Shown here piece after piece: positions 6,826 to 60,652 of a DNA stretch of 64,000 nucleotides. A program made the translations under genes and the position numbers. The DNA comes from Nemertoderma westbladi (lineage: Eukaryota > Animalia > Xenacoelomorpha), in NCBI GenBank assembly GCA_032718475.1, contig JAUCBJ010002711.1:1-64000 (forward strand). The letters are read 5' to 3'. Positions within the stretch are counted from its first letter, which is position 1; each line of letters begins with the position of its first letter. The notes beneath the pieces were generated by a model that was given only the letters and a program-made list of their open reading frames with translations, did no database searches and had not been told where the DNA came from.

Positions 6826-7884
6826 ATGGCGAGTAAGCTGATCAGGAAGAGAAAGGCGGAGTCGGGAGGAAAAGAAATATTGGTGGATTTCACCGAAAGA
6901 CACCCGGAGGAGAAGACGAGAGGATACTACGAGAGGTTGGAAAGGGGTCACGCGGCACGAGCGCTGCAGGATCACTTCCGGGAGGCGCACGAACAGCGGT
7001 TGGTCGGGACCTACGGGACGCCGTCGCTGGACAACGCGATCTTCCAACACTTCCACTACGTGGTGAAAGGGGACGAGGCGAAGTTCGGGATTCCGAAGTA
7101 TCCGAGGGAATCGCCGAGGAAGGACTGGAAAAGATTCATAGAGTCCGTCAACAGAGGAGGATATATGATCCTAGATGACGAGGGAACCGTGGAAGACGAA
7201 GCGGGTTCGAGACGAGGAACGGCAGGGTCGGCCAGGACCATACTCTTGCATTTGGCAGCGCCAAATGGGGACATCTTCTTATTCGACCTAGGGACGTATG
7301 GGAAGAAGGACGGGCCGAAATTAGATCGACTACCGAAAGCGGTACAGGTCTTAGTAAGAGAGAAGTCGACGATGAAAGTGGGATCGGCGATCCGCGAGGA
7401 CGCGGAGAGGATCATCGGTCCGGACGCCACCAACCTCCTGGATATGCAGAAAGTCTTTATGGCTATGACGGCACCGGATGGATTGGGGGTGGTCGAGAAC
7501 TCAGGCCAATGCGGGGCGGTGGCGATGGGCCAATTATTGGGGCTCGTATGCCACAAACCAATGGATTGGGGGAAGTTTAGGGAAGAATACGGAGCAGAAC
7601 TAGCGAACTCGCTGAAGTGGGGAGCGAGACCGGGAAAGCAGGAGGTATATCAGTTTCGCAGAGGAGCGATAAAGGTATATCAGAAGCGATATATCCTGCA
7701 GGAGGACTGGATGATGATAAGTTTACTTAACTTATTCATGACCGTAGTTATTGAAAGAGAACCAGGGGCATTTCTGTTATCGGGATCACCCCTAAGCTAC
7801 AGGAGAGCCTTTAAAGTGGCCTTTGACGGTCTGGTAGACCACCCGGGGCTGAGTGGGTGTACTACAACAGCCGACATCTGGTAG
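6826..7884 (+). CDS. ORF3 N-terminal part: DEDDy (RNase D/WRN-like) 3'-5' exonuclease domain
   Basis: ExoI-like MILDDEG, ExoII-like KVGSAIREDA, LLDMQ, and ExoIII-like QKRYILQED in the expected order. First ATG is at 6826. Confidence 0.78.
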   Translation: MASKLIRKRKAESGGKEILVDFTERHPEEKTRGYYERLERGHAARALQDHFREAHEQRLVGTYGTPSLDNAIFQHFHYVVKGDEAKFGIPKYPRESPRKDWKRFIESVNRGGYMILDDEGTVEDEAGSRRGTAGSARTILLHLAAPNGDIFLFDLGTYGKKDGPKLDRLPKAVQVLVREKSTMKVGSAIREDAERIIGPDATNLLDMQKVFMAMTAPDGLGVVENSGQCGAVAMGQLLGLVCHKPMDWGKFREEYGAELANSLKWGARPGKQEVYQFRRGAIKVYQKRYILQEDWMMISLLNLFMTVVIEREPGAFLLSGSPLSYRRAFKVAFDGLVDHPGLSGCTTTADIW

Positions 7885-9353
7885 ACGGGGAGACAGACAC
7901 ACCGTATCAGAGATGGGAGCAGCTAGAGATGGATAGACGGGAAGCAAAGCGACTGGAAGAAGTCGCTAGACGGGAGAGGATAGAAGCAGAGGAGAGGGAG
8001 GAGGAGGCCAGGACACAGAGTTATGGCTTCGAGGAACAGGCGGGCCTAGACGAACTTCATTGGACTTCGTCGGGGAGTTCGGGGGAGTCTCTAGGGCGAG
8101 AATTGGGATGGACGGTGGGATCGCCGAAACAGTCGACGTCGGGGTTGCACGCGATGCCCATACCAGCGGGCGCCGAGGGCGACCAACCGCCAAGGAAGTT
8201 AAGGGAGCTAGAGGGATGGAGAGCTACGGGCGAGAGCCAAGGCGGGAAGGGACATAGTGGATCCATCGGGATACCGGGATTGGAGACACTACCAGAAGAG
8301 GAGGACGACGACGACGAGTTCGGAGAGATGCCGCCCATCGAAAGGATAGGCCACTCGGACACGGACTGGGTTGGCGGGAGGGTGGTGACGGCCAGTGGGG
8401 CGAGGGCCTTCTGGAATAGATCCGGCAAGCGGACCTGGGTGCACGAGGGGCCGGCGATGGATTTCGCGGGGAGCACCATCAGGTTGGGCGAGCAACCGGG
8501 AACGGCACCACGGATAGTATTCGGGGAGACAATGCCCGAGAGGGGCGGAGAGATCGACGTAAACAGGGAGAGCAACGTGGAGAAGTTTGCCTACCAGCGA
8601 CTCCATAGACCGCGGAGATCGCTTGGGACAAAGGACGAGGTGGGACGCGAGACATTGGTACTCGGCTGTGACTACTGTGGGAGACAGACCCATCAGGAAA
8701 GCAGCTGCCTATACCGGTTCCAACGGGGAACCTTTTGTCTCTATTGTAGAGAACCGAGTCACAGGATGGGGGCGTGTCCACGGTTGCATAACCGATGTCC
8801 AAAGTGCCACTTTCGGGGACACTACGGACGCGAGTGCGACTGGATGAGCGACGAGGAGAAGTTCACGAGGTTCGAGGAGTGGGCCGACGTCGGGGCCATG
8901 ACGCGCCAGCGCATGAAGGCCCAAGAGTTCAAGTGGGGTTTCTTCCTCATAAACCAGGAGACCCACATGGAAATCATAAAGCGAAGGTTACTGTTTACCT
9001 ATCAAGAGGTAGCTACGGCGGCATCGTTCGCCGGAGTTATGAACACGCAACGGTACCTGGACAGGTGGACACCAGAGAACCGGAGGGAGTTTAGGGATTT
9101 CTTGGCGGAACACGTGCCAAAGGCAATGAAGATGATTCTATGGGACGCCACACGAGGGAAACAACCAGGCCATTCTGAGGGGCCACCGGCGAAGCGGTAT
9201 CGGGCTTTAATAACACCAGCGCCCAAGGAGCCGACGACCGGGATCAGCAAGGAAGTGGCAGCAAAGGTCCGGAAACAGAAAGCGGATGATGCCAGAGGAG
9301 CAGTGATAACCAAGAAACGGGCCAGGGAAGAGGACGTGAGGAGGAACAGATAA
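7857..9353 (+). CDS. ORF3 C-terminal part: three CCHC-like zinc knuckles; probably a frameshifted continuation of 6826-7884
   Basis: CDYCGRQTHQESSC, CLYCREPSHRMGAC and CPKCHFRGHYGREC. It overlaps the previous ORF in the -1 frame, and the family-E homologue is a single ORF. Confidence 0.72.
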   Translation: MYYNSRHLVDGETDTPYQRWEQLEMDRREAKRLEEVARRERIEAEEREEEARTQSYGFEEQAGLDELHWTSSGSSGESLGRELGWTVGSPKQSTSGLHAMPIPAGAEGDQPPRKLRELEGWRATGESQGGKGHSGSIGIPGLETLPEEEDDDDEFGEMPPIERIGHSDTDWVGGRVVTASGARAFWNRSGKRTWVHEGPAMDFAGSTIRLGEQPGTAPRIVFGETMPERGGEIDVNRESNVEKFAYQRLHRPRRSLGTKDEVGRETLVLGCDYCGRQTHQESSCLYRFQRGTFCLYCREPSHRMGACPRLHNRCPKCHFRGHYGRECDWMSDEEKFTRFEEWADVGAMTRQRMKAQEFKWGFFLINQETHMEIIKRRLLFTYQEVATAASFAGVMNTQRYLDRWTPENRREFRDFLAEHVPKAMKMILWDATRGKQPGHSEGPPAKRYRALITPAPKEPTTGISKEVAAKVRKQKADDARGAVITKKRAREEDVRRNR

Positions 9354-32436: not shown

Positions 32437-32890
32437 ATAACGGATATTGCTTCTTTATTGCAGTAAGCAATAAAGTTGAAAGTACCTGTTGACCGGTAAA
32501 CCTGAACCGGTACTTCTGTAGGTCAGTAGGCCCAACTGCCAGAACCGGTACTGCTGTAGGTCCGTAGGTCCAACTGCCAGAACCGGTACTTCTGTAGGTC
32601 CGTAGGCCCAACTGTCCTAACCGGTACTTCCAGTATAAGTACATTAGTATTATTCGATTTGATTATTGTATACTGTAGGCTGCCAGGGGAATAGGGATTG
32701 ATCACCCCTCATTCTTTTGTATAGTTTACTTATTTCTGCCAGTTTTATTTACTAGTAGGTTGATATTGAGCAGAAGGCGTGTAACCCTGCTCAGATTGTA
32801 CAGATAATTTGTAGGCTTGACTGTTGGCTAACTGTTGATTAGGTCTGAACGGATTACAGTGCATGTAGAGTGTATGTCCGATAAAGAACG

Positions 32891-34476
32891 TGTTCGCGGT
32901 ATTTCAACTTTCCATAACGCGAGTTGAATATTTTTGTATTTTATTAAAATTGATTATTCCGATATTACTACTGGGTGCGGGACCATGGGTTTTGGGCACA
33001 TTCAATAAACTGGGGGCGATTTATGGGCGAACGTTGGGGCAACTTACAGGGTACGGGAATAATTTCATAGTTATAAGGGCCAGGGGGGATGGAAAATGCA
33101 AGCAGTATTCAGGTTAGCCTGAGTACTATTAGGCCCTGGCCAACTTCCTGCTGCCTGTAGGGGTGGATTTGGTAATGCGCCAGGCCTAAAGGACAAGGAC
33201 TGCCCTTAGCGGTCCCTGGCCAACGGCAGCTACTACGAGACTGAAAAGAACTCGGAACGCTGACTGCTTGTGTCAGGGATTTGCGACGGGCACCGACGGC
33301 CCCTTAGTAGCCAAGCCGTTCTGGTTCTCGATGATCGAACCCCGGGGTTCATGAGGGGTGGAGCGGACACGCGAACAGGTGGCCAACTTAAGACTGCCCC
33401 CTGACCTAAGCCGTACTGGTTCTTGATGACCGATCCCTTCGGGGTTCGTGAGGGGTGGGACGGACATGCGAAAGGGCTGGCCACAGGACTGGTTTGACAA
33501 GGACTGCCCTTAGCGGTCTCGGGTCAACTGCAGCTACTACGAGCCTGAAAAGAACTCGGAACGCTGACTGCTTGACTGGGATTTGCGACGGGAACCGACG
33601 ACAGACCCCTTAGCCAAGCCGTTCTGGTTCTCGATGATCGCTCCCTTCGGGGTTTGTGAGGGGTGGAACGGACACGCGATGGGGTCGAAAGACAAAGGAC
33701 TAGACTCGACTAGACTCTACTGGCCTACCGACCGTTCGGAGCAGTTTCTCGGCTGCCGAAGCGACTACGAGCCTGAAACGGACTCGGAAAGCCTAGGTGG
33801 TTGGGTTTCTGTAATGAACTGACGGACCCCTAGCCAAGCCGTTCTGGTTCTCGATGATCGAACCCTTCGGGGTTCGTGAGGGGTGGAACGGACACGCGAA
33901 CGGGTCCACCGACACGATAGACTCTTAGCCAAGCCGTACTGGTTCTCGATGACCGAACCCTTCGGGGTTCGAGAGGGGTGGTACGGATACGCGACAGAGT
34001 CTACCGACTGGACCGACCCTTAGCCAAGCCGGGCTGGTTCTCGATGATCGTTCCCTTCGGGGTTCGTGAGGGGTGGAACGGACACACGACAGGGTCGACC
34101 GACACCGACACTACGGCACTAAGACTGGGACTGAGGGAAAATCTGGGGAACATTAGGTAGGCTAAAATTCTGAGCGAACAGTGGGTTATTAAATAATATA
34201 CCGTAGGGATTTATATTATCGTGTATAATTATTGTGAATATTTGGTGTATATTGATTTGGGGAAGCCCAAAATTATTCTTAATCAGGTTTTCAACTATAG
34301 GAAGTTACATTAAAGAGTATATCCAACTAATGCAGCTTTTCTCAACCGCAAACTTGCATCTTAGAAATATTCCCTCCCCACAATCAATATCCGGTGACTG
34401 GCCGGGGCTCGGTGGTCTGTTAAGTCACGTCTCCAGCATCGGCGTTTTTCCCCCTGGTGTAGGAATAACGGCAACA
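32891..34476 (+). repeat. 5' LTR of element E with internal hairpin repeats
   Basis: TGTTCGCGG...GGCAACA. Only scattered substitutions versus the 3' LTR. Confidence 0.97.
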
Positions 34477-34727
34477 AAATTAAGAATAATTAATGCGGTT
34501 AATTTTGACACGGTGTCAAAATTAAGGATAATTACGGTCAACTTCAACTGGTGGAAGTTGAGAATCCTTCAATACTCTTCAAAAACTCTCTACGTGCTTG
34601 CCAGCACCCACTATGAGGAAACTCTGGTATTTGAGTTGAGACAAAGTCGTGGTTTAATTAAACAACAAACTCGATCTAACCAACTCGTAGTCGGCAGATC
34701 ACAATTCGGGAGAGTTGTTAACAGGGA

Positions 34728-34919
34728 ATGGAAGTATCGATCACACCCATTGATATAATTCAAGTTGAGCCAGGAATCTGGCACGTCGAAGTTGAGGTAC
34801 AAGGAACGAACGTTGGACGATTCAGGATTACTGTTCGGGTGGTCCAAGCTGAGTACAATACCTACGAAGAACTGTTTTACGACATCGCGTATCTCGCCAT
34901 CGACGAGGCGTTACAATGA
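34728..34919 (+). CDS. Putative 63-aa upstream ORF overlapping the gag start (ATGA)
   Basis: ATG start, protein-like composition, and its TGA (34917-34919) overlaps the gag ATG (34916). Confidence 0.45.
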   Translation: MEVSITPIDIIQVEPGIWHVEVEVQGTNVGRFRITVRVVQAEYNTYEELFYDIAYLAIDEALQ

Positions 34920-37900
34920 CCACAAATAACGTATCCGATACCGACGAGATGGATCACCACACAGACTCGGAAGCCGACGAGGTACCAAACGTCAAGAACA
35001 TGACCCGTCGGTTAGGGGCTCTTAAAGGCGGAGTAACCCGAGCGTATCAACGGATGGAGAAACAACTCAAGGGAGTTAAAACCCCCCTCAATGAGGTACA
35101 AACTCAGCTTCAAAGTATCCGAAATATCCTACAGCGGTACGAAAGAATGATACAGGCGTACCAAGAGCTCGTTCCCCCCACCGATCTGGAAAACTACCCC
35201 AAGTTGGAAGAACACGTTGTACATCTAGATGGGTTCCGCAAACAACACCGGAGGACCCTCAGCCTTGTGAGAGGCTATGAGGAACAGTATTACAAGAGGG
35301 CCGAAAGAACAGACGCGGAATCGGTACGATCCTCCAGCATCAGGACAGCAGTACATCGAAAGAGAACGGGGTCCGTTAGAGATCAGCACTCCAGCGCTAG
35401 GAGCGAAATATCCGGCTCAGCGCGCAGTTCTCAAGGGGCGCCGCCACTCCGAGACCAACTGCGAGAACGGAAGGCATTAGCCCTCAAAGCTCGGATGGAA
35501 GATGAGTATATTCAACTGCAAGCCGAGCAAGATGTATTAGCCGCCGAGACACAAAAGCGAGAGGCCGAACAAGCGGCCGAACGGCAGGCCGAACAACGCG
35601 AACAGGAGGCCGAACAACATAGACGAGAGGCCGAACGACAGGTCGAACAACGTAGACTAGAGGCCGAACGACAGGCCGAACAACGTAAACTAGAGGCCGA
35701 ACGACAGGCCGAACAACATAGACTAGAGGCCGAACGACAGGCCGAACAACGTAAACTAGAGGCCGAACGACAGGCCGAACAACATAGACTAGAGGCCGAA
35801 CGACAGGCCGAACAACGTAAACTAGAGGCCGAACGACAGGCCGAACAACATAGACTAGAGGCCGAACAACATAGACTAGAGGCCGAACAACGCAGACAGG
35901 AGGCCGAACAACGCGGACGAGAGGCCGAACGAGAGATCGAACAACGTAAATGGGAAGCGGAAATGCGTAAACAACACGCCGAGGCCCAAGCAATTCTCAT
36001 CCACAAAAAGAATGCGGATATTGCAAAACTCGCAGAATACGAAGCCGCACTTATAGAACGAGATATTCAACTCTACGAGGACTGGGAAAGGGATATAGAT
36101 CAGGAATATGAACCAATTCCGGTACCGGAGTTAGAAAAGTCATTTACACCGACAGCGGCGAAGCCTCCGAAACCCGAGATCCCGCCCACCAAACAGTCTA
36201 CGCTATCGGCACAAGCCCCGGTGTTCCATCCCCCACCGGCTACGTTAAAGAATGAGGAACCCTATTTCCCATCCAACACCACGACAGCGAGTGTACCCAA
36301 GTACGAGCCTGAAAAGGACTCGGAACGGGACGCCACTCCCCGATCAAACAACCCATTTACATCAACACCACAAACTCGCAGCCGCGTCATTATCAAAACT
36401 CCGCCTATCATTGATCCATCAAGTATGGGAGTGAGTGCCAATAACTATAACCCTCCGAGTCACTCCAGTTCAGACGACGTCAGCATCATCCGGGCGTTGG
36501 AGAACCGCCTTGCCATGCCGAAGATGGAGATTCGCACCTTCGAAGGAGATCCCGTCGATTACCTCAGATTCAAGAAACGGTTCTTCGCGCAGATTGGATC
36601 AACGGACATAGCCGACGCACAGAAATTGGTATATTTATCGCAATACCTGGGTGACAAACCACGCAGAATTGTTGCATGTTTTGAAGGAGGTTCTCATGAG
36701 GCATACTATGATGCATGGAAAACTCTGGATAAAAGATACGGAAATACCGGAACTATAATTAATAAAACTCTAGAGAGACTGATACAGGACGCGGGATCAC
36801 TAGGAGACCCACAGAACATACAGGAATTCTCCGACTCTATGAAGGATGCCTACTATACTCTGAAACCCTTGAATAAGAAGGACCAGGTGAACAACATTCT
36901 AAACCTCCGACAGATCGCCCGGAAGTTCCCCGGATGGCTACAAAGTAAGTAGGCTTATAAATGTGTAGACCTCCGGCGCAGACATCCAGATCGAGATCCT
37001 AGCTTCCTTGAGATGTCGGCATTCCTGGACGATATCTCCGAAGCCATGAATGACTCGATGTTTTCCAAACAAAGTCTCGCAAAGTTGGACGGAATAGAGA
37101 GCAACTCCAGGGGTAAGATAACCCCTCCGAAACCGAGATTCCGCCCCCCACCGGTGAGTACGATGGCCATCACCATGGCTGAGGATTCCGACGACGAAGA
37201 CTACGAGGAACCGACATCCGCCGAGGAATGGGCATGTTATCTCGCGAATTGGGCACCCGAAAGGGAAGGCATCACAAATTCCCTACTCTGTCTCTTCTGT
37301 GGGGAGAAACATAAAGTGGAATTCTGCAGAAAGTTTCAGTTCGCCGACCTCGTCCCACGCTTCGAGGCGATAATGAAACACCGAGGATGCTTCCGGTGTC
37401 TTGGAACAGGTCACTACGTTCGGGATTGCGACCAAAGGTCGTGCTGTGCTGTCTGTAACGACCAACGCCATCACACGCTCCTCCACATCCCCGCGAACTT
37501 CGACTTTACTACCCTCCCCTTTCGGATCGAAGCCAGGCGAAGAGGAGAAACAAACCACGTCTTCAAAGGAACCCGGACAACCCAACGGAGAGAAACCAAC
37601 CCGTTTAAAATCTCCACCGATACACCACAAGTAACAAATATTTCGGCCACGATTAATCTTATAAATCGCCGTTACATGGTTTTCGCAAAGGTAATCCCAG
37701 TAAGGATCCAAGGAGTCGGTAAATCTTTGACGACACTCGCGTTCCTCGATAACGGGTCTGACGGAACCATCATCGACCGGGATTTTCTCGAGCAACTCGG
37801 ACTAGAATACGAGCCTTGTAAACGGCCCATACAAACCATCACCGATAACAGAGAGGTAGAGTCCGGGGAGGTGCAACTCCAGATGGAAGGAGTGATGAAG

Positions 37901-40900
37901 GGCTACGAAACGGCTAAGTTAACTATAAAGAACGCCTTGGTACACACAGACCTCCGGGTGCGGTTCCGACAATCAGCCGAGTACGCCCCCCTCATACAAT
38001 TGGACCGGGACGATGTAGACCTGAGGTGTCCGCAGCTGGACGTAAACCGTATCACCCTACTGATCGGACTTGATACACCGGAACTACACATCCCCACCGG
38101 AGATATCGCCCGATCTATAAACCAGGATGACGGATTTTATGCTGAACGAACAATAATGGGATGGACACTCTGCGGCATTAAGGAGGAAACTACGGACACC
38201 TATACCTACCTTCCCAAATGTCAGATTAAAGAGAATGTAACCTCCGTGGGTTATTGCTCGGCTTCGGATCTTGACGAGGATTTGTTTCTGGAATCCGAGA
38301 AAACTCAACGAGAGATGACGAAATATTTTAATTTGGAGACCCAGGAGTTCGCGGAAAAGGACGAAAACCCATCCGAAGAGGACCAATATTGTATGGACGT
38401 TCTCGACCAGGCCACGTTTAAAGACGGACATTGGTGTTCACCTATGTTATGGAAGGATCCAAACAAACCAATGGCAAACAACGCCAGCATGGCACTTAAA
38501 TGACTTAAAGGGATTCTACGCCGGCTGAATGACCAACCTGAAATAAAGGAGAAATATAATACCGTAATCCAAGGATATCTCGATGATGGATTAGCAGAAA
38601 TGGTACCACGGAATGAACTGCAAGGTGGTAAAAGAACATATTATCTCCCAACCCACTATGTAGTAGAAGCCCGCAAAGGTGGGAAAATCCGAGTGGTAAA
38701 TGATGCTGCCGCTATGTACCAGGGCGAATCCCTAAACAGTCAACTTTACACGGGACCCAACATATATAGCACACTCATCGGCGTATTGATCAGGTTCAGG
38801 GAAAACCGGGTAGCATTCACCTGTGACATCAAGGCCATGTTTCATCAGGTTCGTACGTTACCAAGAGACTCGGACTGTCTACGTATCCTATGGACGGATA
38901 AAACGCTTACTCAACAGGAGATTAGCCAACTCATGATACGGGACGTAGACGTAATGCGTATGGTCGTCAGGATCTTCGGTGCTAAGGACTCGCCGGTAGC
39001 ATGCAGTGACATGCTAAAGAGGACGGCAACTATGTGCGAAAACGAGTTCCCTCCAACCGTCATAGAAACCATTCGACGATGCTTCTACGTGGACGACGGA
39101 TGCGCCGGCGCGGATAACGTGGATGAGGCACATCGGCTAGCAATGGGGATGGTGGAATGTCTAAAGAAAGGAGGGTTTCCGCTCGTAAAGTTCAGATCCC
39201 ATGACAAAACACTTATGGAAAAGTTTCCGGAGGACATCCGGCTGGAAGATAACAAAATGTATTCGGAGGATGTGGAACATCGTGTACTTGGGATTGAATG
39301 GGACATAGAATCAGACGAATTCATCTTCAAGTATAAACCCCTACCCAAGCCTATGACAAAAAGGGGATGTTTGTCGATAAAAAGCGCCATCTTCGACCCA
39401 TTAAATTTCATATCTCCAGTAACCTTGGCCGGAATGAACCTGATTAAGGAAATGTGGATAGAAGGACTGGGATGGGACGAAGAGCTTCCCCCATACCTTA
39501 GCGTCAAATGGAGAAAATGGACGGAGCAGCTCGAACATCTACATCTTATGCGGATACCTAGACCGTTCTTCCTCGATAAACTGCCCACCGATATCTTCCA
39601 GCTCCACACCTTTTCGGATGCTTCAAATACCGGAATCGGCGTAGTAACCTTCTTACGGAGACTAAGTAGCGATGGAAACGGCGATACAAGCTTCTTATTC
39701 TCCAAAGCAAAGACAGTATCCGGGGAATTCGTAGCAACGATTCCGAGACTCGAGCTACAAGCTGCAGTTTGGGCAGTAAGACAGAATCGCATGGCCATGC
39801 GGAACCTACGGATCCCCATAGAATCTCAACACTTCTGGGTAGATTCGAGTATAGTTCTCTATTATCTCCACTCTCCATCACGGTGTCACACCACGTTTGT
39901 TGCAAACCGAGCCACGGAGATTAAACAGTGTACCGGCCGAGAACAGTGGCATCACGTGAACGGGAAGGAAAACCCAGCGGACTTATCAAGCCGAGGCGCC
40001 ACCCCAAAACAACTCGGTAAAAGTAAACTCTGGCTTACAGGCCCGGAATTCCTACGGCAGCCACAGTTGACATGGAGTACCCGATTCGACCCCGAACTCG
40101 ATAGTGGAAAATACTCCGAGGACGATAAAGAGATCCGTAAAATCCATCGAAGCAACGCGGTGGAAATTTATAGTTGCCTGACTGAGCCTGCAAAGGACTC
40201 GGGCAGGCACTATAACGTCGCGACGATCACTCAACTAGCGGCGTCTTTACATCAGTTGATCGAGCGAACTTCATCCATGAGACGGCTCGTCTATCACGTT
40301 ATAACCCTTCGCAACTTCCTACGGTGGAAAAACAACAAACCGATAGTTCAACGGAATATACAAGAACTCATTATTGCGGAGAAGTGTATTGTCAGATATG
40401 TCCAGAAAGAAAGTTTCCCCGATGAATGGGAACAACTTAGTGCGGGCAAAACGTTGAAACCGGACAGCCCAGTCTACCAACTGAGACCAATGATGGGAGA
40501 GGACGGACTGATCCGACTGAATACCCGGATGGCAAACGCCCCGGTCGAATATGAGGTTAAATACCCGGCGCTTCTGCCCGGAACGTCGACACTAGCTAAG
40601 CTATTAATTCTACAATGCCATGAGGACAACCACCACGCAGGACAGAATTGGATTATAGCTAATATAAGACAAAGATATTGGATCACCCACATCCAGCCAC
40701 TGATCCGGAAAGTGTTGAAACGTTGCTTCACCTGCAGACGTTACCTAGCGCCACCAATCGCCCAAAAGATGGCCGACTTACCGGCCACCCGTCTACAAGC
40801 GGATTCCCCACCATTCTACGTCACCGGAGTGGACTGTTTCGGACCGTTCACGGTTATTGAACGACGATCCAACATCAAATGCTGGGGAGCCATCTTCACC

Positions 40901-41791
40901 TGCCTGAGGTCTAGGGCAATTTACCTAGATATCGTGGTAAATCTGACACAACACGCATTCATCAACGCTCTGCGTCGGTTCGTGGCAAACAACGGGACAT
41001 GCCGCCACATGTATTCCGATAATGGTACAAACTTTGTGGGAGGAGAAAGGGAACTTAGAGAGGCGATCGAGGGATGGTTTACCGATAACACTGCATCCCA
41101 AGTCTGGAAGGAACACCAGATACAGTGGCACTTCCAGACCCCCTTAGCACCCCATACGAGCGGGGTATGGGAGAAACTAATCGACCTAGTGAAACGGTCC
41201 ATGCGCGTCGCTCTAGGCGATACCCGGGTAACCCATGACACCCTCCGCACAACATTTTGCGAGATCACGGCTACCCTGAACAACCGACCCATTGTTCCTA
41301 TCCGCGACGACCCCACAGACCTGGAACCCCTCACTCCTAACCACTTACTGGGGAGACCCAAAACCCACCTCCTCCCGGAAACCATGTTCCCGGATCCCAA
41401 CGAGATCGCGAAACATACAAACTGGAAAAAGGCCCAAGCATTGGCAGCGCATTGGTGGAGGATTTGGGCCCAGGAATATCTCATAACCCTCCGGACCAGG
41501 AGGAAATGGAACAACACCCACCGGAACGTTGCAGTTGGCGACATGGTACTAGTTAGAGAAGATCTCAAAGACCGCGTTCACTGGCCTGTGGCGCGGGTCG
41601 TGACCATACACCCAAGCAAAGACGGACTTGCGAGGACTGTGACGATACGAACGAAAGCGGGCCACTACCAACGCCCCATCCAGAAGCTGTGCCTTCTTGA
41701 AGGCAATGACAGTGGTGATTCTACAAGAGGTGATAAGTTCCCTACTACGGATCCTGCTGCAGACATCGGTGACAATGACAAATGCGTTTAA
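34916..41791 (+). pseudogene. Family-E Gag-Pol in one frame, with two in-frame stops (36950-36952, 38501-38503)
   Basis: The three track ORFs share a frame. Motifs FEGDP, three knuckles, FLDNGS, DIKAMF, FYVDDG, FSDAS, WVDS, GVDCFGP and YSDNGTNF. Confidence 0.93.
35555..35950 (+). repeat. Coding tandem repeat, mostly 33-nt units (EAERQAEQ[H/R][R/K]L), predicted coiled coil in Gag
   Basis: Repeated GAGGCCGAACGACAGGCCGAACAAC. Confidence 0.92.
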
Positions 41792-42069
41792 ACCCTTCTC
41801 ATCATGTTGACAAACTCTTTATAAACTGTGATTTATCGACAATGAGTTATGGACCCCCCTTTAAACCAACTGTAACCACGCAATGGTATTTGTGTTTCCT
41901 CGTGTGTTATGTGGAGTCCAGCATCACCCTGCAGATGTTTCGGCTGACGCAGGGTCGTTTATGCATTGTTTACCCTGATTTTGGTCATCAGGACCTACGA
42001 TATTGGATTATTGGAAATGGAAGAGATTTGAAGTGGAATTCATTGTATTCATTGCAGTATGTTATGTTG

Positions 42070-42490
42070 TCCGTTGCGTGCGCAGTTCGGGGCGTAGGCG
42101 GTGTAACGAGTCCAGCTGTAGATCCCGGATTGCCGCGCAACACCCCCTCTATCCCGTTATTCTGGTGGGTCCATGGTGCATCCACGTGACTTCGACGATA
42201 GAGGGTTTTATGTTCTCAGTCGCGTTATTCTGGTGGGACCGTTGCGTGGATTTTGGGGCGTAGGCGGTGTAACGAGTCCAGCTGTAGATCCCAGAATGTT
42301 GCGTAACCCCATCCCACATGACTTCGTCGACTGAGCTTTATGTTGTTGGGAGAGTTATTCTGGTGGGTCCCTGGTGCACCCACGTGACTTCACTCCCAGC
42401 GTCTTCATTGTCCGTTACGTGCGCAGTTTGGGGCGTAGGCGGTGTAACGAGTCCAGCTGTAGATCCCAGATTGCCGCGTAACACCCCTTC
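42070..42490 (+). repeat. Three diverged units of about 170 bp between pol and ORF3 of element E
   Basis: GGGGCGTAGGCGGTGTAACGAGTCCAGCTGTAGATCCC near 42089, 42255 and 42430. GTTATTCTGGTGGG near 42157, 42224 and 42354. Confidence 0.88.
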
Positions 42491-43036
42491 CACGACAAAG
42501 ATTAAACAAAGAAAATGATTCAATATAGTTGGAAATGATGAAAAGGATCAGACAACTCTGCTATAAACCTGAATGATGACGCGTATACTGATGAAAATGA
42601 AATGATGCGCACCCTGGTGCTGCGCTTATAACAATGATGATAGCCGGGGGGCTATAAACCCAATGATGATGTGGAAATAAATAAATGTGAAATAAATGGT
42701 GGAAATAAATGTGTTGAAATATATGTGGAAATAAATGAAATGAGATGAAATAATAATGAAATGAAAAAAGACAAAAAAAAGGTATAAAAAAGGTCAAAGA
42801 AAAGAATTGGAAAAAAAAGGACAAAAAAGTCATAAAAAACTGGTTGGATATTATGTATAGCTATAGTAACTGTAAATGCTGAATGTATTAGCAATAAGAT
42901 GATAGATGCCTATATAGCAATGTTATTTAATAAACTGAATTCAATAAAAAACTGAATTATTCTGCTATCGCTATAGTTTCAGACTTTCTGGACTTATAAT
43001 TAACTGATCTAATTTGTAACGGATATAATCGTAAAT

Positions 43037-45637
43037 ATGGACCCAAATCGCCAAATTATCGGCGAATTACGTAACACGATAGATCTACTGGAATATTCGC
43101 AACCCGGATCCCCTGACTTTGATACAAATTGGAACATTCTGCTAAATGAGAACGTACGAGAAATTAAATTCACCGGGCGAGAGGGACCGGATTCTAAGAA
43201 TCTACGAGCCCTCCGGTTAGCCGATGCTAGTACGAGACTGAAAAGAACTCGGAACGCAAAGGCAACCGGAGGGGACGATTCGTCGTTTTGGGAAACGTTC
43301 TGGCAGAGCGTCTACAGATCCCGATGTTTGATCTACGACAACGAGGGAAACGCGACGCCCACCTCGAAGGCGATTACGTTGGCGAGATGTCAGAGTTTCG
43401 TCGACGACAAGAGTACGTACCTCGCCCACTGGGGAAACCTGTCGGAGTGTACGGTGACGCTTCGAGAGGAACGCGTATCGATTATCCAAAACCGCGACGA
43501 CTACCAGGAAAAGTACGGGGCGAAAGAATACGGTCGATCCTTAGTCGTCGTCCTCGGAACCCTGGACGGTTTGGTACTGGTGTGCCGAATATTCCCGACA
43601 CCCAGACATGAAGTGCAGGCAGCCGGAGCGATCTGGTTGCTGCCTCCGGATATCCAAAAGATCCTCTTCGACTTCGACGTCATTAAAATCGGGTCGGATA
43701 TCAAGGCGGACGTCCGGAACGACTACGCGAACGCTCCCGCAGGAAGAAACCGACGAAATGACCTCAACGCACTTAGCCATTGCATCGACACTCAAACGCT
43801 GCTAGCCTGGTTACGATTCGCCGAGTTCATGCGAGGATTCCAAAAAGTGAGACCGACGAAATCCGGGATCGGCTACCTCGCTGTGCTCAACGGCGGTATC
43901 GACTTCAAACCCCAGAAATTCCGGGACTATAATAAAATATACGGCGGATACCCGGGATTAGAGATAAAGAGCGAGCGAGAGGGTCGATGGAAGGACGTCG
44001 ATCGGAAGTGGACGATACACCAAAGGTGGGAGAATCCCGATCGACGGAGCTATATCTACGTCGTTATGGAATGCTACACCGTCGCTAAGTTTATCTGCAA
44101 GACTCTAGATAACTTCATCACGGCGGTCCCCCTTTCCTTCGTCGACTACGACTGGAACGAGGTTATAAACCACGCGTTTAAAGCGGTCGAGAACATTACA
44201 CCGGGAGAATCAAAAACGCCCGCCGTTATCGATTCCTGGGACGAGAGCGGACCTTACGACATCCCTACGATTACCGAACTTCTCGGTGCGGAGGAGCCTC
44301 TGATCTCCTCGGAAGGGGAAGAGATATGGCTAAACGAGGGTGTTCTACTCTCCACCCCGAAGCGACAACTCGAACCGGAGGCCGCGTACGGACCGGCCGC
44401 CAAACGGGTTGCCTCGGCCGAACCGGTGAAGAGAGCAGGCGTCTACACCCCACGCGGCTCCGGTAGCCCCGCGAGAGAGGTAGCCACTACGGCTGCATTG
44501 AGCGACTTCGGCGACATATGCCAACGGTTATCCCCGTATCCTTTCCCGGGCGGCGAAGATTGGTCGTCGGAGATTCCGAGTACCAGCCACCAACGGACCC
44601 GCTCAGCGATACTGGTCGAGGAAGGCCCCAGCGATGCGCCGACACCCGACGATCTCCTCGGTATCCCTCCGTCGAAAACCCCGGCACCTCTTCGCCGACC
44701 AGCGGTGGCTACTACACCCGCCATTCCTCAGGACCCTATGCGACTAACCCGTTGGTACGCCGAGCAAACTGAATGGATCCACCGCCAGAAACGGTCGTCC
44801 GAGTTGAGACCATCGGGACATAAAGAGGGTTATCGAAGCGAGAACATACTACGCAAGAGCCCAGCATTCCGCGGGCTACCGACCACCGAGAATATTCCGA
44901 AGAGCGACCGACGTCTCGAATACTACGCCGGCGTCCCGATTCCGATATTCCCCGGTCGAGAGATGCAGTTGGAGGTATGCGGCGACTGCGGTTCGGAGCA
45001 GTGCCCACGCGGCAGAAGGAATCGGGTTACCGATTCTTGCCTCCAGCTCCTCGTGATACTCTATTGCCCATACTGCGCGATATCGGGCCACGACGTTTCG
45101 GTCTGTCCGATCCTTTATAACCTCTGCACCACGTGCGGTTTCCGTGGACATTCCACTAGCCCCCGCTGCTATATTAAATGTCCAACCAAAGACGTTACCG
45201 CTATGGGCAATATGGTCATGTTTGAGACATACGCAAACAGCCATTTAAAGACCAAGTTTCGGAGAAACGCTCGGAATATCGCGCAGGAGATGGCGTGCGG
45301 ATATTTCTCCTTCCCGGAACGCCTCCACACGTCGGCCTCGCTACCCTTCCATTACGTGGATCTGCTACTGAGCGCCGGATTATTCGGTCCATTCGAAGTT
45401 ATTAGACGATTATATTCGTATAAAGAGGAGTTCGGTGACGGAGAATGGTTCCTAGAGGCACGCAACTCCGAGTTGGAAAGACGAACCGACATGATCCCGT
45501 TGCCTTCAAAAGGAAGAGCCGCCAGGAGACAAGCCGAAGCGTTACTCACGATGGATGTTGACGCTCCTCTACCAGCCATAGCGATCGATGAGAGTCGACG
45601 GGCGAAGAGACGGAAGGCGTATCAGAAAAAGAAATAG
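43037..45637 (+). CDS. ORF3: DEDDy-like 3'-5' exonuclease, Pro-rich linker, CCHC-like zinc knuckles, basic tail (866 aa, intact)
   Basis: LIYDNEG, LPPDIQKILFD..VIKIGSDIKADV, CIDTQ, SGIGYLA and YIYVVMEC. Then CGDC, CPYCAISGHDVSVC and CTTCGFRGHSTSPRC, ending RRAKRRKAYQKKK. Confidence 0.82.
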   Translation: MDPNRQIIGELRNTIDLLEYSQPGSPDFDTNWNILLNENVREIKFTGREGPDSKNLRALRLADASTRLKRTRNAKATGGDDSSFWETFWQSVYRSRCLIYDNEGNATPTSKAITLARCQSFVDDKSTYLAHWGNLSECTVTLREERVSIIQNRDDYQEKYGAKEYGRSLVVVLGTLDGLVLVCRIFPTPRHEVQAAGAIWLLPPDIQKILFDFDVIKIGSDIKADVRNDYANAPAGRNRRNDLNALSHCIDTQTLLAWLRFAEFMRGFQKVRPTKSGIGYLAVLNGGIDFKPQKFRDYNKIYGGYPGLEIKSEREGRWKDVDRKWTIHQRWENPDRRSYIYVVMECYTVAKFICKTLDNFITAVPLSFVDYDWNEVINHAFKAVENITPGESKTPAVIDSWDESGPYDIPTITELLGAEEPLISSEGEEIWLNEGVLLSTPKRQLEPEAAYGPAAKRVASAEPVKRAGVYTPRGSGSPAREVATTAALSDFGDICQRLSPYPFPGGEDWSSEIPSTSHQRTRSAILVEEGPSDAPTPDDLLGIPPSKTPAPLRRPAVATTPAIPQDPMRLTRWYAEQTEWIHRQKRSSELRPSGHKEGYRSENILRKSPAFRGLPTTENIPKSDRRLEYYAGVPIPIFPGREMQLEVCGDCGSEQCPRGRRNRVTDSCLQLLVILYCPYCAISGHDVSVCPILYNLCTTCGFRGHSTSPRCYIKCPTKDVTAMGNMVMFETYANSHLKTKFRRNARNIAQEMACGYFSFPERLHTSASLPFHYVDLLLSAGLFGPFEVIRRLYSYKEEFGDGEWFLEARNSELERRTDMIPLPSKGRAARRQAEALLTMDVDAPLPAIAIDESRRAKRRKAYQKKK

Positions 45638-45794
45638 TGGATTGGGATATTCCAGGAACATTTATCGAACATTTATTTTTATACAAACTCTAGGCCAAAT
45701 TAATTAAAAACTATGCAATATTAAATTTGGGATTTTTTATATTGGGAATGACCTACGCAAACTCAATCGACCGACAGACTTCACGAAGGTCATT

Positions 45795-45803
45795 GGGGGG
45801 GAC
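45795..45803 (+). other. Polypurine tract of element E
   Basis: GGGGGGGAC lies directly before the 3' LTR TGT. Confidence 0.85.
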
Positions 45804-47389
45804 TGTTCGCGGTATTTCAACTTTCCATAACGCGAGTTGAATATTTTTGTATTTTATTAAAATTGATTATTCCGATATTACTACTGGGTGCGGGACCATG
45901 GGTTTTGGGCACATTCAATAAACTGGGGGCGATTTATGGGCGAACTTTGGGGCAACTTACAGGGTACGGGAATAATTTCATAGTTATAAGGGCCAGGGGG
46001 GATGGAAAATGCAAGCAGTATTCAGGTTAGCCTGAGTACTATTAGGCCCTGGCCAACTTCCTGCTGCCTGTAGGGGTGGATTTGGTAATGCGCCAGGCCT
46101 AAAGGACAAGGACTGCCCTTAGCGGTCCCTGGCCAACGGCAGCTACTACGAGACTGAAAAGAACTCGGAACGCTGACTGCTTGTGTCAGGGATTTGCGAC
46201 GGGCACCGACGGCCCCTTAGTAGCCAAGCCGTTCTGGTTCTCAATGATCGAACCCCGGGGTTCGTGAGGGGTGGAGCGGACACGCGAACAGGTGGCCAAC
46301 TTAAGACTGCCCCCTGACCTAAGCCGTACTGGTTCTCGATGACCGATCCCTTCGGGGTTCGTGAGGGGTGGGACGGACATGCGAAAGGGCTGGCCACAGG
46401 ACTGGTTTGACAAGGACTGCCCTTCGCGGTCTCGGGTCAACTGCAGCTACTACGAGCCTGAAAAGAACTCGGAACGCTGACTGCTTGACTGGGATTTGCG
46501 ACGGGAACCGACGACAGACCCCTTAGCCAAGCCGTTCTGGTTCTCGATGATCGCTCCCTTCGGGGTTCGTGAGGGGTGGAACGGACACGCGATGGGGTCG
46601 AAAGACAAAGGACTAGACTCGACTAGACTCTACTGGCCTACCGACCGTTCGGAGCAGTTTCTCGGCTGCCGAAGCGACTACGAGCCTGAAACGGACTCGG
46701 AAAGCCTAGGTGGTTGGGTTTCTGTAATGAACTGACGGACCCCTAGCCAAGCCGTTCTGGTTCTCGATGATCGAACCCTTCGGGGTTCGTGAGGGGTGGA
46801 ACGGACACGCGAACGGGTCCACCGACACGACAGACTCTTAGCCAAGCCGTACTGGTTCTCGATGACCGAACCCTTCGGGGTTCGAGAGGGGTGGTACGGA
46901 TACGCGACAGAGTCTACCGACTGGACCGACCCTTAGCCAAGCCGGGCTGGTTCTCGATGATCGTTCCCTTCGGGGTTCGTGAGGGGTGGAACGGACACGC
47001 GACAGGGTCGACCGACACCGACACTACGGCACTAAGACTGGGACTGAGGGAAAATCTGGGGAACATTAGGTAGGCTAAAATTCTGAGCGAACAGTGGGTT
47101 ATTAAATAATATACCGTAGGGATTTATATTATCGTGTATAATTATTGTGAATATTTGGTGTATATTGATTTGGGGAAGCCCAAAATTATTCTTAATCAGG
47201 TTTTCAACTATAGGAAGTTACATTAAAGAGTATATCCAACTAATGCAGCTTTTCTCAACCGCAAACTTGCATCTTAGAAATATTCCCTCCCCACAATCAA
47301 TATCCGGTGACTGGCCGGGGCTCGGTGGTCTGTTAAGTCACGTCTCCAGCATCGGCGTTTTTCCCCCTGGTGTAGGAATAACGGCAACA
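45804..47389 (+). repeat. 3' LTR of element E
   Basis: Copy of 32891-34476, followed by TSD GAACG. Confidence 0.97.
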
Positions 47390-49189
47390 GAACGGTTAGG
47401 AAGTAGGGGCAGCCATCGCTGTAAGGTAAACCCCCGTCTAAAGAATAAGTCGTACTACTGGGTTAGAACGCATACTACCTAATCATTTCGGAGTCTGCAT
47501 GTCCTGTAGTTTATTTAGGCTTGAGAGTAGTCTGCCATCGTTTAGTCTGTACTTTGTTTGTGTAAGTCTGTACGGGTAGCGTATAATATTTATTTAGATA
47601 ATTTGTAGGCTGGATAGTTGTCTGGCTGTTATTAGGTCTGAACGGATTGCAGTGTGTGTAGAGCCTCTGTCCGATAAAGAACGGTTAGGAAGTAGGGGCA
47701 GCCAATGCTGTAAGGTAAACCCCCATCTAAAGAATAAGTCGTACTACTGAGTTAGAACGCATACTACCTAATCATTTCGGAGTCTGCATATACCGTAGTT
47801 TGTTTAGGCTTGATAGTAGTCTGTCAGTATTTGGTCTGCATTTTGTTTGAGTGGTTTGTACGCGTAGCGTAATATTTATTATTCAGAGTTTATGCGATTA
47901 TTCGCAACATTCATTCCCCAAGTTTGTTCCTACAGTAATTGTGTTTGTTATACATACCGTTATAGTTAAACTAACCCCGGTACTACACGGGCTGCTTGGC
48001 GTAGGTAAAGACTGGTGATTTTGTGCACCGGTCACTCCAGCAGATGACGTGGTTCTTTTAGCTGTTCAAGTATATTTAACTTCTGATTATATGTTGTACA
48101 AGTACTCGTACCTAATTTAGGGTTTAGTGTACAGTGCTTTCCGAAAGTAATTAGAGTAGGTATTATATTTGTGTTGTAAAGTGGTTGATAGGCACTTTCG
48201 ATTAGCTCTATTAACTTCTAGGTAGGAACACTCCGTGATACATAACGTAGTACCTATAGCGATACGGCTATAGGTCGTCAGGCGGTGGTATTTTCCCATC
48301 TGGACAACGCAGTGTATTTACTACTACATATTATTTTCAAATACCGCAGTACCCTGTCCGTTGTAATAACCAGATTTCTAACCCTTTGTTAGGCTGGTTT
48401 GTAGACTTCTTGTAAAATTACCCTAAAAATTCGTATTTTGTGTTTTTTGTAAATTTTTGTGTTTATTTAGAGATTTTAATCTCACCCGAATTGTACGTAA
48501 TTTGTAGTATTAAGTAACTTAGGTAAATTAGAATTATTTGTTTTAGTGTCCTATAAGTAACACTTCACTGAAAGCGCACCGCTTTGTGTAGTGATTACTC
48601 CCCAGAAATAATAACATTTATTTCAAACATTGACAAAACCCATTAAAACGGGTATATATATTATAAATCAAATCTAACGATTTATAAATAGTAGGCCTAC
48701 CATACAACCATTAGGTCTCAATATCAGTTGGACTACTGCTCAAATAACGGTAATAAAGTAAGTAAAGTAACCAAGTAACCCTAAAATTCAGAAATTCAAT
48801 TATTTAAAATAATTGATATACCGGTATTTACGATAGGCCTATTATCTTTATTTCTATAAATTTAGGCTGAAATTATACCGGTACTGGTAATTAATTCTAG
48901 TCCAGAATTATATATACTACAAACTGTAAACTGTATACCGGTATTCCCGATAGGCCTATTATATATTTATATATATTTGTGCTAAAATTATACCGGTATT
49001 CTGTGATAAACCTAGTCTGTAATAATACTTATATATACTATAAGCATACTGGTATACTAATATTATATATATATCACGCTACATTGAGTAGCAGTATCGG
49101 TAATTAATTACTAGGCTAACAGTGATACTGAATTACTAGACTTGCTTTAACTGTAATATAGCAGTAGGCATTCAACTGTACAATCAAAC

Positions 49190-60061: not shown

Positions 60062-60571
60062 TTAAGCAATATTGAGAGCACGAGGTTGATTACCAATCAA
60101 CCTCGTGTCATCCCAGTAAACGGGGACAATAGGCCCCAAAGGAGACACACACAATAAGGGTCAGGGGCCAAACCCCTAACAGAGAGAGAACAGCAAGGGC
60201 GAAGGGAAGCACTTCAGAGGGGGGCAAAGGGTGACAAGTAGGATACCAGCCAATGGGGGGACAGCATCGACTAGGTACAGTAATATGGCCAACTGTGCAG
60301 TATATATTACCTGTTGGTGCTTCCCTATTCAGTTAGTTTACTCAGTTAGTCCAGTAGGGTGGAACGGTGACTTCTATCACCGTCCACGTCCGCTACCGCC
60401 ATCATACTTATCTCCCGGTAACCGTGCCATACTATACTATAGCCTATATATCAACTATATTATACCTTATACATATAACCGAACATCAGAACTCTTTTAC
60501 CTTTCACACACGGCGGGGACGCGTAGATAGAAAACCCAACGGATAAACCGGGATCCGTAGATCCCGTCACA
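60062..60571 (+). repeat. Remainder of the 5' LTR of family-A element D
   Basis: Aligns to about 10107-10597 (AAGCAATATTG, GGGTCAGGGGCCAAACCCCTAAC, CACGGCGGGGACGCGT, GATCCCGTCACA). Confidence 0.88.
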
Positions 60572-60652
60572 GTGATAGAATCAGATCCACCCAGCTGCCC
60601 TGACAGTGATAGAACTAGATCCAGCCAACTGCCCTGACAGACAGAAGACAAG

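What the first reader, a model, noticed from the sequence alone, without database searches (positions are those of the whole stretch)
43037..45637. Intact accessory ORF3 in family E: DEDDy exonuclease plus zinc knuckles in the env position
Seen in sequence: an 866-aa ORF between pol and the PPT with ExoI (YDNEG), ExoII (KIGSDIKAD) and a variant ExoIII (YVVME) motif, a cluster of Cys/His knuckles and an NLS-like tail. There is no signal peptide or transmembrane segment. It is intact although gag-pol has two stops. From memory, DEDDy ORFs have precedent in nematode Cer and bdelloid rotifer LTR elements, so capture itself is not unprecedented. The exonuclease-plus-knuckle architecture together with a non-tRNA PBS is not something I recognise. 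Inference: it may trim an RNA 3' end back to the PBS duplex to create the primer, proofread cDNA, or degrade host small RNAs.
Basis: partly seen in the sequence, partly recalled or inferred. Interest (0 to 1): 0.8.

Follow-up and report, generated by a model that had tools for sequence, protein, structure and literature searches.

The report
Retrotransposon-borne RNA exonuclease with zinc knuckles
A BEL/Pao jumping gene of an animal carries, where a viral envelope gene would sit, an old and conserved extra gene whose protein joins a predicted RNA-trimming nuclease fold to zinc knuckles; many relatives keep the gene with a dead nuclease site and an ordinary tRNA-type primer site, so it likely works as an RNA-binding helper, probably against host silencing, and is likely not there to make the primer.

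Summary
ORF3 (43037-45637, 866 aa) lies between pol and the PPT of a young BEL/Pao element. Its N-terminal half has a DEDDy fold (Nibbler Z 11.9; family profile hits EXD2 at 4e-12) with D101, E103, D225 and E345. Its C-terminal half has three zinc knuckles. The gene is not a one-off: a second family in the window has it, and so do dozens of metagenome contigs (BEL pol upstream in 36 of 40 loci with room). It co-diverges with RT and is under purifying selection. The self-complementary PBS is real here (13 nt, 0 of 1000 shuffles) and in a second family, but ORF3 does not depend on it. Best reading: an accessory RNA-binding protein with dispensable 3'-5' trimming, likely counter-silencing. DEDDy ORF3s are published for rotifer Juno and Vesta. 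This scan earlier noted similar ORF3s and self-priming BEL elements in other genomes.

The parts
32886..32890 (+). left target-site duplication (5 bp)
   Evidence: same 5 bases at 47390-47394
32891..34476 (+). 5' LTR, TG...CA, 1586 bp, with five 88-nt hairpin repeats
   Evidence: 8 differences to the 3' LTR; repeat family D6
34271..34283 (+). 13-nt stretch complementary to the PBS, 206 nt before the LTR end (candidate self-primer; second copy at 47184-47196)
   Evidence: 0 of 1000 shuffles
34479..34491 (+). non-TGG primer-binding site, 2 nt after the LTR end
34499..34525 (+). perfect leader hairpin just after the PBS
   Evidence: z -2.5 for 34477-34580
34916..41791 (+). BEL/Pao gag-pro-pol in one frame, with in-frame stops at 36950-36952 and 38501-38503
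   Evidence: Pfam DUF1759, Asp_protease_2, Peptidase_A17, Integrase_H2C2, DUF5641 above cut-off, zf-CCHC just under it
41792..43036 (+). pol-ORF3 spacer: three G+C-rich repeats, an A-rich stretch, a TATA-like box near 42783 and a candidate splice acceptor near 42982 (both untested)
   Evidence: sequence read directly; no Rfam match worth noting
43037..45637 (+). ORF3, 866 aa
43250..44140 (+). DEDDy 3'-5' exonuclease domain; D101 (43337), E103 (43343), D225 (43709), Y341 (44057), E345 (44069)
44978..45376 (+). three zinc knuckles followed by a conserved FE-x2-A...T...G-[YF]-F module
45596..45634 (+). basic C-terminal tail (NLS-like, untested)
45795..45803 (+). polypurine tract
45804..47389 (+). 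3' LTR
6826..9353 (+). homologous ORF3 of a second, distant BEL/Pao family (A), frameshifted between 7827 and 7884; same D-E-D-E acidic set
   Evidence: (E 2e-11)
60372..60580 (+). family B (LTR 72% like family A): non-TGG PBS 60572-60580, complementary to 60372-60380, 200 nt before the LTR end
   Evidence: (3 of 1000 shuffles)

Best explanation
ORF3 is an old accessory gene of one BEL/Pao lineage that encodes a DEDDy exonuclease fold joined to three zinc knuckles, and it likely works as an RNA-binding protein that probably shields the element from host small-RNA silencing, with 3'-5' trimming as a dispensable extra. Shown: the fold, the knuckles, the position after pol in many elements, co-divergence with RT, purifying selection, survival of the gene with a dead active site in one clade and with no detectable nuclease domain in another, and its presence beside ordinary TGG primer sites. 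Inferred: the knuckles would grip single-stranded RNA and feed a 3' end to the nuclease, as in trypanosome RNase D. The protein would be made from its own spliced or internally started mRNA. Active forms would trim, and dead forms would bind or act as decoys on, silencing small RNAs or their precursors. Whether this copy, with Glu in place of the ExoIII Asp, is catalytically active is untested.
For: Fold: all 50 entries listed from a search of 48,161 chains are DnaQ-like nucleases or polymerases with such a domain, led by Nibbler (Z 11.9, rmsd 4.1, 200 aligned), with Rrp6, EXD1, TbRND, RNase D, Egalitarian and WRN at Z 9.2-10.1. Profiles hit TbRND (2e-8) and Egalitarian (1e-5) and EXD2 (4e-12). 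Pfam DNA_pol_A_exo1 matches 2 of 34 members, best 2e-7. BEL pol lies upstream on the same strand in 41 of the 80 loci with flanks, and in 36 of the 40 with at least 3.5 kb upstream. Peptidase_A17 and DUF5641 were confirmed in 5 of 5 pol ORFs of relatives scanned. Vertical descent: the exonuclease and RT trees share 14 of 20 splits (random mean 0.2, max 3; Mantel rho 0.89), the knuckle and RT trees 16 of 24. Selection: dN/dS 0.03-0.52 in 19 of 23 exonuclease pairs (4 saturated) and 0.03-0.72 in 18 of 21 knuckle pairs (3 saturated). Catalysis is dispensable: of 51 complete domains, 30 keep four acidic residues, 15 lost both ExoI residues and 6 have other losses. The dead forms make one clade in the exonuclease tree (18 rows, support 100) and in the RT tree (11 rows, 100/99), are homologous to the live ones (HHalign 99.6%), and still show dN/dS 0.03-0.45 (10 pairs). 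L042, L052, L071 and L054 keep the knuckles with no exonuclease detected. In TbRND the zinc-finger domain boosts RNA binding and cleavage (PMC7797062 passages). That Nibbler, Mut-7 and EXD1 act in small-RNA pathways, and that Egalitarian uses its domain to bind RNA, is established knowledge, partly stated in PMC5408684.
Against: No result here shows a substrate, an activity or a target; counter-silencing is inferred from the nearest folds and from tolerance of catalytic loss. The Z values of Nibbler, polymerase exonuclease domains and NrnC-like enzymes lie within about 1.5 of each other, so the fold does not tell RNA from DNA substrates. The model is weak overall (mean pLDDT 46.9, 11-row alignment; knuckle region under 50), and Foldseek gave no hit at E 0.001 or better (best 0.028). 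The loci were found through the knuckle motif, so the constancy of the knuckles is partly built into the search. The dN/dS pairs were hand-picked, overlap, and come from relatives only 12-28% identical to this protein. For family E itself, low-depth fragments gave 4 synonymous and 6 non-synonymous codon changes, which is inconclusive. Rodriguez et al. found no link of rotifer ORF3s to copy number and neutral within-genome variation. Methylated 3' ends of piRNAs resist many such enzymes (recalled).
Confidence: 0.45

Rival explanations
1. ORF3 is a cis-acting RNP factor. It binds the element's own genomic RNA (3' UTR or LTR hairpins), protects or matures its 3' end, and helps transport or packaging, much as Egalitarian uses its exonuclease-like domain to hold RNA cargo.
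For: Egalitarian is a profile and fold hit. The knuckles resemble nucleocapsid and Lin28 fingers. Catalysis is dispensable. The dead clade carries a conserved 3' UTR element (20 of 23 loci against 0 of 43) that could be its binding site. Rodriguez et al. proposed 3'-end processing of element RNA for rotifer ORF3s.
Against: Gag already supplies knuckles. ORF3 is a separate ORF after a 1.2-kb spacer in this element. The 3' UTR element marks one clade, so it is a single event and not independent support.
Confidence: 0.3
2. One reading: in the self-complementary lineage (families E, A and B) ORF3 trims an RNA 3' end back to the 13-nt PBS duplex and so makes the primer for reverse transcription.
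For: E and B have non-TGG PBSs complementary to their own LTR at 206 and 200 nt before its end, with different letters. E meets the 10-bp self-primer rule of PMC6317226. E and A keep four acidic residues, share Glu at ExoIII, and group in the RT tree (long branches). L069, near them in that tree, shows no clear TGG and a 10-nt low-complexity complement at 201 nt.
Against: 24 firm and 3 candidate leaders of 28 readable in ORF3-bearing relatives have TGG sites, among them L008 and L074, which lie nearest to E and A in the trees. None of 17 TGG leaders tested has an upstream complement over 8 nt. So the gene is kept without self-priming. Tf1-type self-priming uses a 5' segment of the mRNA and needs a cut (PMC4600332); a 3'-5' exonuclease cannot make the first cut, and in Tf1 RNase H does (recalled). 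In E the predicted lowest-energy fold of 34260-34580 does not contain the PBS duplex. B's own ORF3 is not in the window, and A's PBS is outside it.
Confidence: 0.12
3. ORF3 acts on DNA: it proofreads RT products or trims cDNA ends before integration.
For: Exonuclease domains of family A polymerases and WRN score nearly as well as Nibbler (Z 10.8, 10.5, 10.2, 9.2). The basic tail suggests nuclear entry.
Against: A dead enzyme cannot proofread, yet dead domains stay under selection. The LTR ends are ordinary TG...CA with a 5-bp TSD. The knuckles best match RNA binders.
Confidence: 0.06
4. ORF3 is a recently captured host fragment that rides along without function.
For: Intactness in this copy is uninformative (p = 0.51). 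Family A's copy is frameshifted.
Against: Tree congruence with RT, low dN/dS, conserved motifs at under 30% identity.
Confidence: 0.03

Closest known systems
DEDDy (RNase D-like) ORF3 of bdelloid rotifer LTR retrotransposons Juno and Vesta, and of Athena/Terminon elements (Rodriguez, Kenefick, Arkhipova 2017, PMC5408684; parts 1-3 of 5 read plus a word search of the whole text; supplement not seen)
   Same: A DEDDy exonuclease ORF after pol, in place of env, without TM or coiled coil. Function untested there too. A variant acidic set (DEED there).
   Different: The host elements here are BEL/Pao (Peptidase_A17, DUF5641). ORF3 carries three zinc knuckles and a conserved tail module; only a Maelstrom-like Cys-His-Cys motif is noted for Vesta2 and Vesta5. 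Here the gene is old and co-diverges with RT, whereas the paper reads the rotifer ORFs as recent, repeated gains. A dead-enzyme clade exists here. Homology to the rotifer ORFs beyond the shared fold was not tested.
Trypanosoma brucei RNase D (TbRND; PDB 7C42/7C45; PMC7797062, passages read)
   Same: DEDDy exonuclease followed by tandem CCHC fingers. Profile hit 2e-8 over both parts, fold Z 9.9.
   Different: A cellular enzyme with four fingers close to the nuclease, trimming U-tails of guide RNAs. ORF3 has a linker of about 280 poorly conserved residues, three knuckles and an extra module. Common descent of the fusion is not shown; convergence is likely.
EXD2 / Nibbler (Mut-7, EXD3) / WRN / EXD1 / Egalitarian group of DEDDy domains
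   Same: Best sequence-profile hit is EXD2 (4e-12) and best fold hit is Nibbler. The group includes non-catalytic RNA-binding members, as does the ORF3 family.
   Different: Only 9-16% identity in the structural alignments. No donor gene could be named, since no cellular sequence was put in a tree.
Tf1/sushi-type self-priming (Tf1, Tj1, Tcn1, TAR; PMC4600332 and PMC6317226, passages read)
   Same: A PBS complementary to a stretch of the element's own LTR instead of a tRNA.
   Different: Described there for Ty3/gypsy and some copia elements. The ICTV profile gives tRNA priming for Belpaoviridae (PMC8742986, whole text). The passages read mention no accessory exonuclease. The start site of the RNA is unknown here.

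Membership tests
BEL/Pao LTR retrotransposon (Belpaoviridae) | LTRs with TG...CA ends, short TSD, PPT | tested here: met
BEL/Pao LTR retrotransposon (Belpaoviridae) | gag-PR-RT-RH-IN order with Pao-type domains (DUF1759, Peptidase_A17, DUF5641) | tested here: met
BEL/Pao LTR retrotransposon (Belpaoviridae) | 18-nt PBS complementary to the 3' end of a host tRNA (ICTV profile) | tested here: not met
   No TGG after the LTR, and a self-complement instead. Host tRNA genes were not available, so pairing to an internal tRNA fragment is not excluded. This is a departure in one trait; the protein domains place the element in the group.
BEL/Pao LTR retrotransposon (Belpaoviridae) | placement in a named lineage (BEL, Pao, Tas, Suzu, Sinbad and others) | not tested
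   no reference RT sequences were fetched
DEDDy 3'-5' exonuclease (DnaQ-like) | DnaQ-like fold | tested here: met
   Z 11.9 to Nibbler EXO, rmsd 4.1 over 200 residues; profile to EXD2 4e-12
DEDDy 3'-5' exonuclease (DnaQ-like) | ExoI D-x-E and ExoII D | tested here: met
   D101, E103, D225 on conserved columns
DEDDy 3'-5' exonuclease (DnaQ-like) | ExoIII Y-x3-D | tested here: inconclusive
   Y341 is present, but position 345 is Glu here and in 3 other rows; 26 of the 30 four-acid rows have Asp. Whether Glu supports catalysis is untested.
DEDDy 3'-5' exonuclease (DnaQ-like) | metal-dependent 3'-5' exonuclease activity | not testable with these tools
   needs an assay
env-type ORF3 | signal peptide, TM anchor, fusion-protein homology | tested here: not met
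   polar N-terminus; the only hydrophobic window is a core beta hairpin; no Pfam hit
Tf1-type self-primed element | at least 10 bp complement in the LTR to the sequence starting 0-5 nt after the LTR | tested here: met
   13 bp at +2; rule from PMC6317226. Family B has 9 bp, just under the rule.
Tf1-type self-primed element | the complement lies at the 5' end of the transcript and is released by a cut | not testable with these tools
   no RNA run with raw reads was listed
Bdelloid Juno/Vesta DEDDy ORF3 group | clusters with the rotifer retroelement DEDDy ORFs in a tree | not tested
   rotifer sequences were not fetched

The most novel reading that the evidence does not exclude
ORF3 is a primer-handling protein of a BEL/Pao lineage that has twice begun to encode its own primer. 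In the E/A/B branch the element primes on its own LTR RNA and the live exonuclease trims that RNA back to the PBS duplex. In the dead-nuclease clade the 3' UTR carries a tRNA-sense copy of the primer's 3' part that can pair with the PBS, and ORF3 binds it without cutting.
Probability: 0.12. Interest if true: 0.85.

Novelty: new variant of a known kind. Interest (0 to 1): 0.52.

Why it matters
Enzymatic ORF3s in LTR elements were described as a rotifer oddity with no sign of selection. Here a whole BEL/Pao lineage has carried one exonuclease-knuckle gene since before its RTs diverged beyond easy alignment. It comes in live, dead and nuclease-less versions and beside two kinds of primer site. 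That natural series makes the open question of what retrotransposon DEDDy ORFs do directly testable with purified proteins, and it points to a possible class of transposon-encoded silencing suppressors built from the same fold that hosts use for piRNA trimming. The self-complementary PBS in two families of the window adds to the case that some BEL/Pao elements do not use tRNA. I found no paper on this ORF3 family or on self-priming BEL/Pao in the library searched. Older subscription papers on nematode Cer elements are not held and may hold a precedent.

Tried and rejected
Single-sequence searches with ORF3 found nothing: Pfam, PDB sequences, the 5.8-billion set. A profile search of that set added only family fragments. 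The single-sequence AlphaFold model was unusable (pLDDT 30). The ESM Atlas gave leads only: DNA_pol_A_exo1 on 42% of members of a 0.91 cluster, DUF8363 and zf-CCHC under 0.9 for the knuckles. No whole genome is held, so family E copies could not be compared. No RNA holder was listed; the one run (X1, kind guessed, contigs only) gave scattered low-depth pieces and none across the LTR-PBS junction, so expression, splicing, start site and the family-wide state of the PBS stay open. Viral contigs gave no motif match and no pol relative. Prokaryote genomes gave 6 motif matches: 2 true ORF3s on short contigs of MAGs, likely eukaryotic contamination, and 4 without a convincing family domain. Rfam and ARAGORN found no ribozyme or tRNA in the element. 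An energy scan for anti-PBS sites in relatives was swamped by G+C-rich matches. A consensus fold of 12 copies of the 3' UTR element showed no covariation. Rows left out of the PBS count: loci whose LTR-leader junction is not on the contig, or is degraded or unclear (such as L010, L017, L035). No fold could be assigned to the knuckle and tail region, because it was not folded alone. Rejected: env function, neutral passenger, intactness as evidence of selection, exonuclease-plus-knuckle as unprecedented, ORF3 as a general partner of non-tRNA PBSs. Literature: Malik et al. 2000 is not held, so a 3'-5' exonuclease in nematode Cer elements is recalled only. PMC3118150 (passages) has 0 hits for 'exonuclease'. 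PMC12440569 (abstract and outline), PMC11662393, PMC6431247 and PMC5718144 (passages) added nothing beyond the rotifer precedent. No supplements were opened; the supplement of PMC5408684 is a primer table by its own description.
Full report
1. The observation. The window is a nest of BEL/Pao retrotransposons; no genome is held, and an animal host is inferred from the host range of the group (PMC8742986). Element E spans 32891-47389. Its LTRs are 1586 bp with 8 differences, end in TG...CA, and are flanked by a 5-bp TSD. Gag-pro-pol runs in one frame with stops at 36950-36952 and 38501-38503 and carries DUF1759, protease, Peptidase_A17, integrase and DUF5641 domains. ORF3 runs from 43037 to 45637 (866 aa) and ends about 160 nt before the PPT. 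The N-terminus is polar, and the single hydrophobic window is a beta hairpin of the nuclease core. That both stops fall in gag-pol is expected with p = 0.51, so this copy's intact ORF3 says nothing by itself.

2. What the protein is. Alone it matched nothing in Pfam, PDB or 5.8 billion proteins. An exhaustive search gave 8 relatives, and the window holds a further, frameshifted one in family A at 6826-9353. A profile of these hit T. brucei RNase D (2e-8) and Egalitarian (1e-5); a 34-row profile hit EXD2 at 4e-12. An AlphaFold model from 11 rows (mean pLDDT 46.9; about 60-86 over much of the nuclease core) matched DnaQ-like nucleases throughout, with Nibbler first (Z 11.9, rmsd 4.1, 200 residues). 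Foldseek ranked the same group first but without significance. D101, E103 and D225 sit on conserved columns; ExoIII has Tyr but Glu instead of Asp, as in family A, P0001 and P0003. The C-terminal domain has three knuckles, the middle one a canonical CX2CX4HX4C, followed by a conserved module. The exonuclease-plus-CCHC design is published for TbRND, where the fingers boost RNA binding and cleavage (PMC7797062, passages).

3. A lineage-wide gene. BEL pol lies upstream on the same strand in 41 of 80, and in 36 of the 40 with at least 3.5 kb upstream. An iterated profile found the exonuclease in 57 frames of 54 loci. RT and exonuclease trees of 23 elements share 14 of 20 splits (random maximum 3), RT and knuckle trees of 27 share 16 of 24. 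This shows long vertical descent; it does not name a donor or a root. dN/dS is 0.03-0.52 in 19 of 23 exonuclease pairs and 0.03-0.72 in 18 of 21 knuckle pairs, the rest saturated (pairs hand-picked, not independent). For family E only 10 changed codons from low-depth fragments were seen, 4 synonymous, which is inconclusive.

4. Catalysis is dispensable. Of 56 non-redundant domains 5 are partial. Of the other 51, 30 keep four acidic residues, 15 lost both ExoI residues and 6 lost others. The dead forms are one clade in both trees, remain homologous over the whole domain and stay under selection. Another clade has knuckles but no detectable nuclease. Because the loci were found through the knuckles, their constancy is partly built in.

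5. The primer site. E has no TGG after its LTR. Bases 34479-34491 are the exact complement of 34271-34283 (0 of 1000 shuffles); family B shows the same design with other letters, 9 nt at 200 nt distance (3 of 1000). E meets a published rule for self-primers (PMC6317226). The ICTV profile lists only tRNA priming for this group. But ORF3 does not travel with this trait. Among relatives whose leader could be read, 24 have TGG just upstream of gag (L005, L008, L018, L021, L024, L026, L028, L029, L030, L031, L033, L034, L041, L046, L048, L053, L055, L058, L059, L062, L065, L067, L076, L079), 3 more are candidates without a visible gag (L061, L074, L080), and 1 (L069) has no clear TGG and a weak 10-nt self-complement. 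These include live and dead ORF3s and the nearest neighbours of E, though E's place in the trees is unsure (long branches). Many loci are related and come from few assemblies, so 27 of 28 stands for a handful of clades. It is still possible as a secondary use in the E/A/B branch, where the tools reached no close relatives.

6. How it most likely works. Shown: fold, knuckles, position, antiquity, selection, dispensable catalysis, independence from PBS type. Inferred: the knuckles bind single-stranded RNA and the DEDDy domain holds, and in live forms trims, a 3' end. The nearest folds are small-RNA trimming and RNA-binding proteins, and a dead copy remains useful, which fits a suppressor or decoy of host silencing (0.45) or a chaperone of the element's own RNA (0.30) better than primer making (0.12) or cDNA proofreading (0.06). 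No call shows a substrate. Expression could not be tested. A candidate acceptor and a TATA-like box in the spacer are read by eye.

7. Comparison and novelty. DEDDy ORF3s are published for rotifer Juno, Vesta and Terminons (PMC5408684); that paper does not mention nematodes, Cer elements or a PBS. A Cer exonuclease is recalled only. Nine searches of the held library for this ORF3 or this kind of priming found no description in BEL/Pao. Earlier notes of this scan report Rrp6-like ORF3s in other invertebrate elements and self-priming BEL/Pao elements in other genomes. They are unchecked AI notes, seen after the fold and the self-complement had been found here; none matched this sequence. Verdict: a new variant of a known kind, interest 0.52. 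The side finding most worth a follow-up is the tRNA-sense anti-PBS in the 3' UTR of the dead-nuclease clade (20 of 23 against 0 of 43), a single-clade trait of unknown role.

Noticed in passing
3' UTRs of L079, L059, L053, L058, L072, L061, L049, L032 and others, between the ORF3 stop and the PPT: A stretch that is the reverse complement of the full 18-nt PBS seen in L033, that is, a tRNA-sense copy of the primer's 3' part (the label tRNA-Lys is recalled). At least 11 of 13 matches in 20 of 23 loci of the dead-nuclease clade and in 0 of 43 others. Most PBSs of these elements match only about 11 nt of the L033 form.
   Followed up: partly
window 60372-60380 and 60572-60580: A second BEL family has a non-TGG PBS complementary to its LTR at nearly the same distance as in E (200 against 206 nt), with different letters. 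The PBS is repeated 34 nt downstream. The long-range pairing is part of the lowest-energy fold.
   Followed up: partly
window 33298-34104 and 46211-47017: Five 88-nt hairpin repeats in the LTR of E (z about -2, no Rfam match). A contig of run X1 skips 713 nt of this array, so LTR length varies among copies.
   Followed up: partly
window 42085-42490: Three G+C-rich repeats in the pol-ORF3 spacer; one folds at z -2.3, another does not. Family A has a long tandem array of 32-36-nt units at the same place (5480-6323).
   Followed up: partly
L126:250-3780: An ORF3 with a long N-terminal extension that by eye has GDSL/SGNH-like motifs before the exonuclease and knuckles, recalling the fused GDSL-DEDDy ORF3 of Adineta sp. 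11. Pfam did not confirm it.
   Followed up: partly
L042, L052, L071, L054: A well-supported RT clade (L042, L052, L071) and L054 whose ORF3 keeps the knuckles and tail module but has no detectable exonuclease domain.
   Followed up: partly
P0002: An ORF3 relative with a tandem duplication of the whole knuckle module and an altered ExoI.
   Followed up: no
window 15707-25632 and 31251-58891: Element E sits inside the LTR of another BEL family (D) whose copies here lack most of pol. No TGG primer site was seen by eye and no clear self-complement was found; its LTR end could not be fixed.
   Followed up: partly
relatives: Synonymous divergence in ORF3 (pS about 0.5) is regularly lower than in RT (about 0.75) for the same pairs; cause unexplained (codon bias, overlapping open frames or recombination).
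   Followed up: no
window about 58900-60065: An A+T-rich insert ending in a GGG-TTAA junction interrupts the 5' LTR of family B; it looks like a piggyBac-type end (recalled pattern).
   Followed up: no
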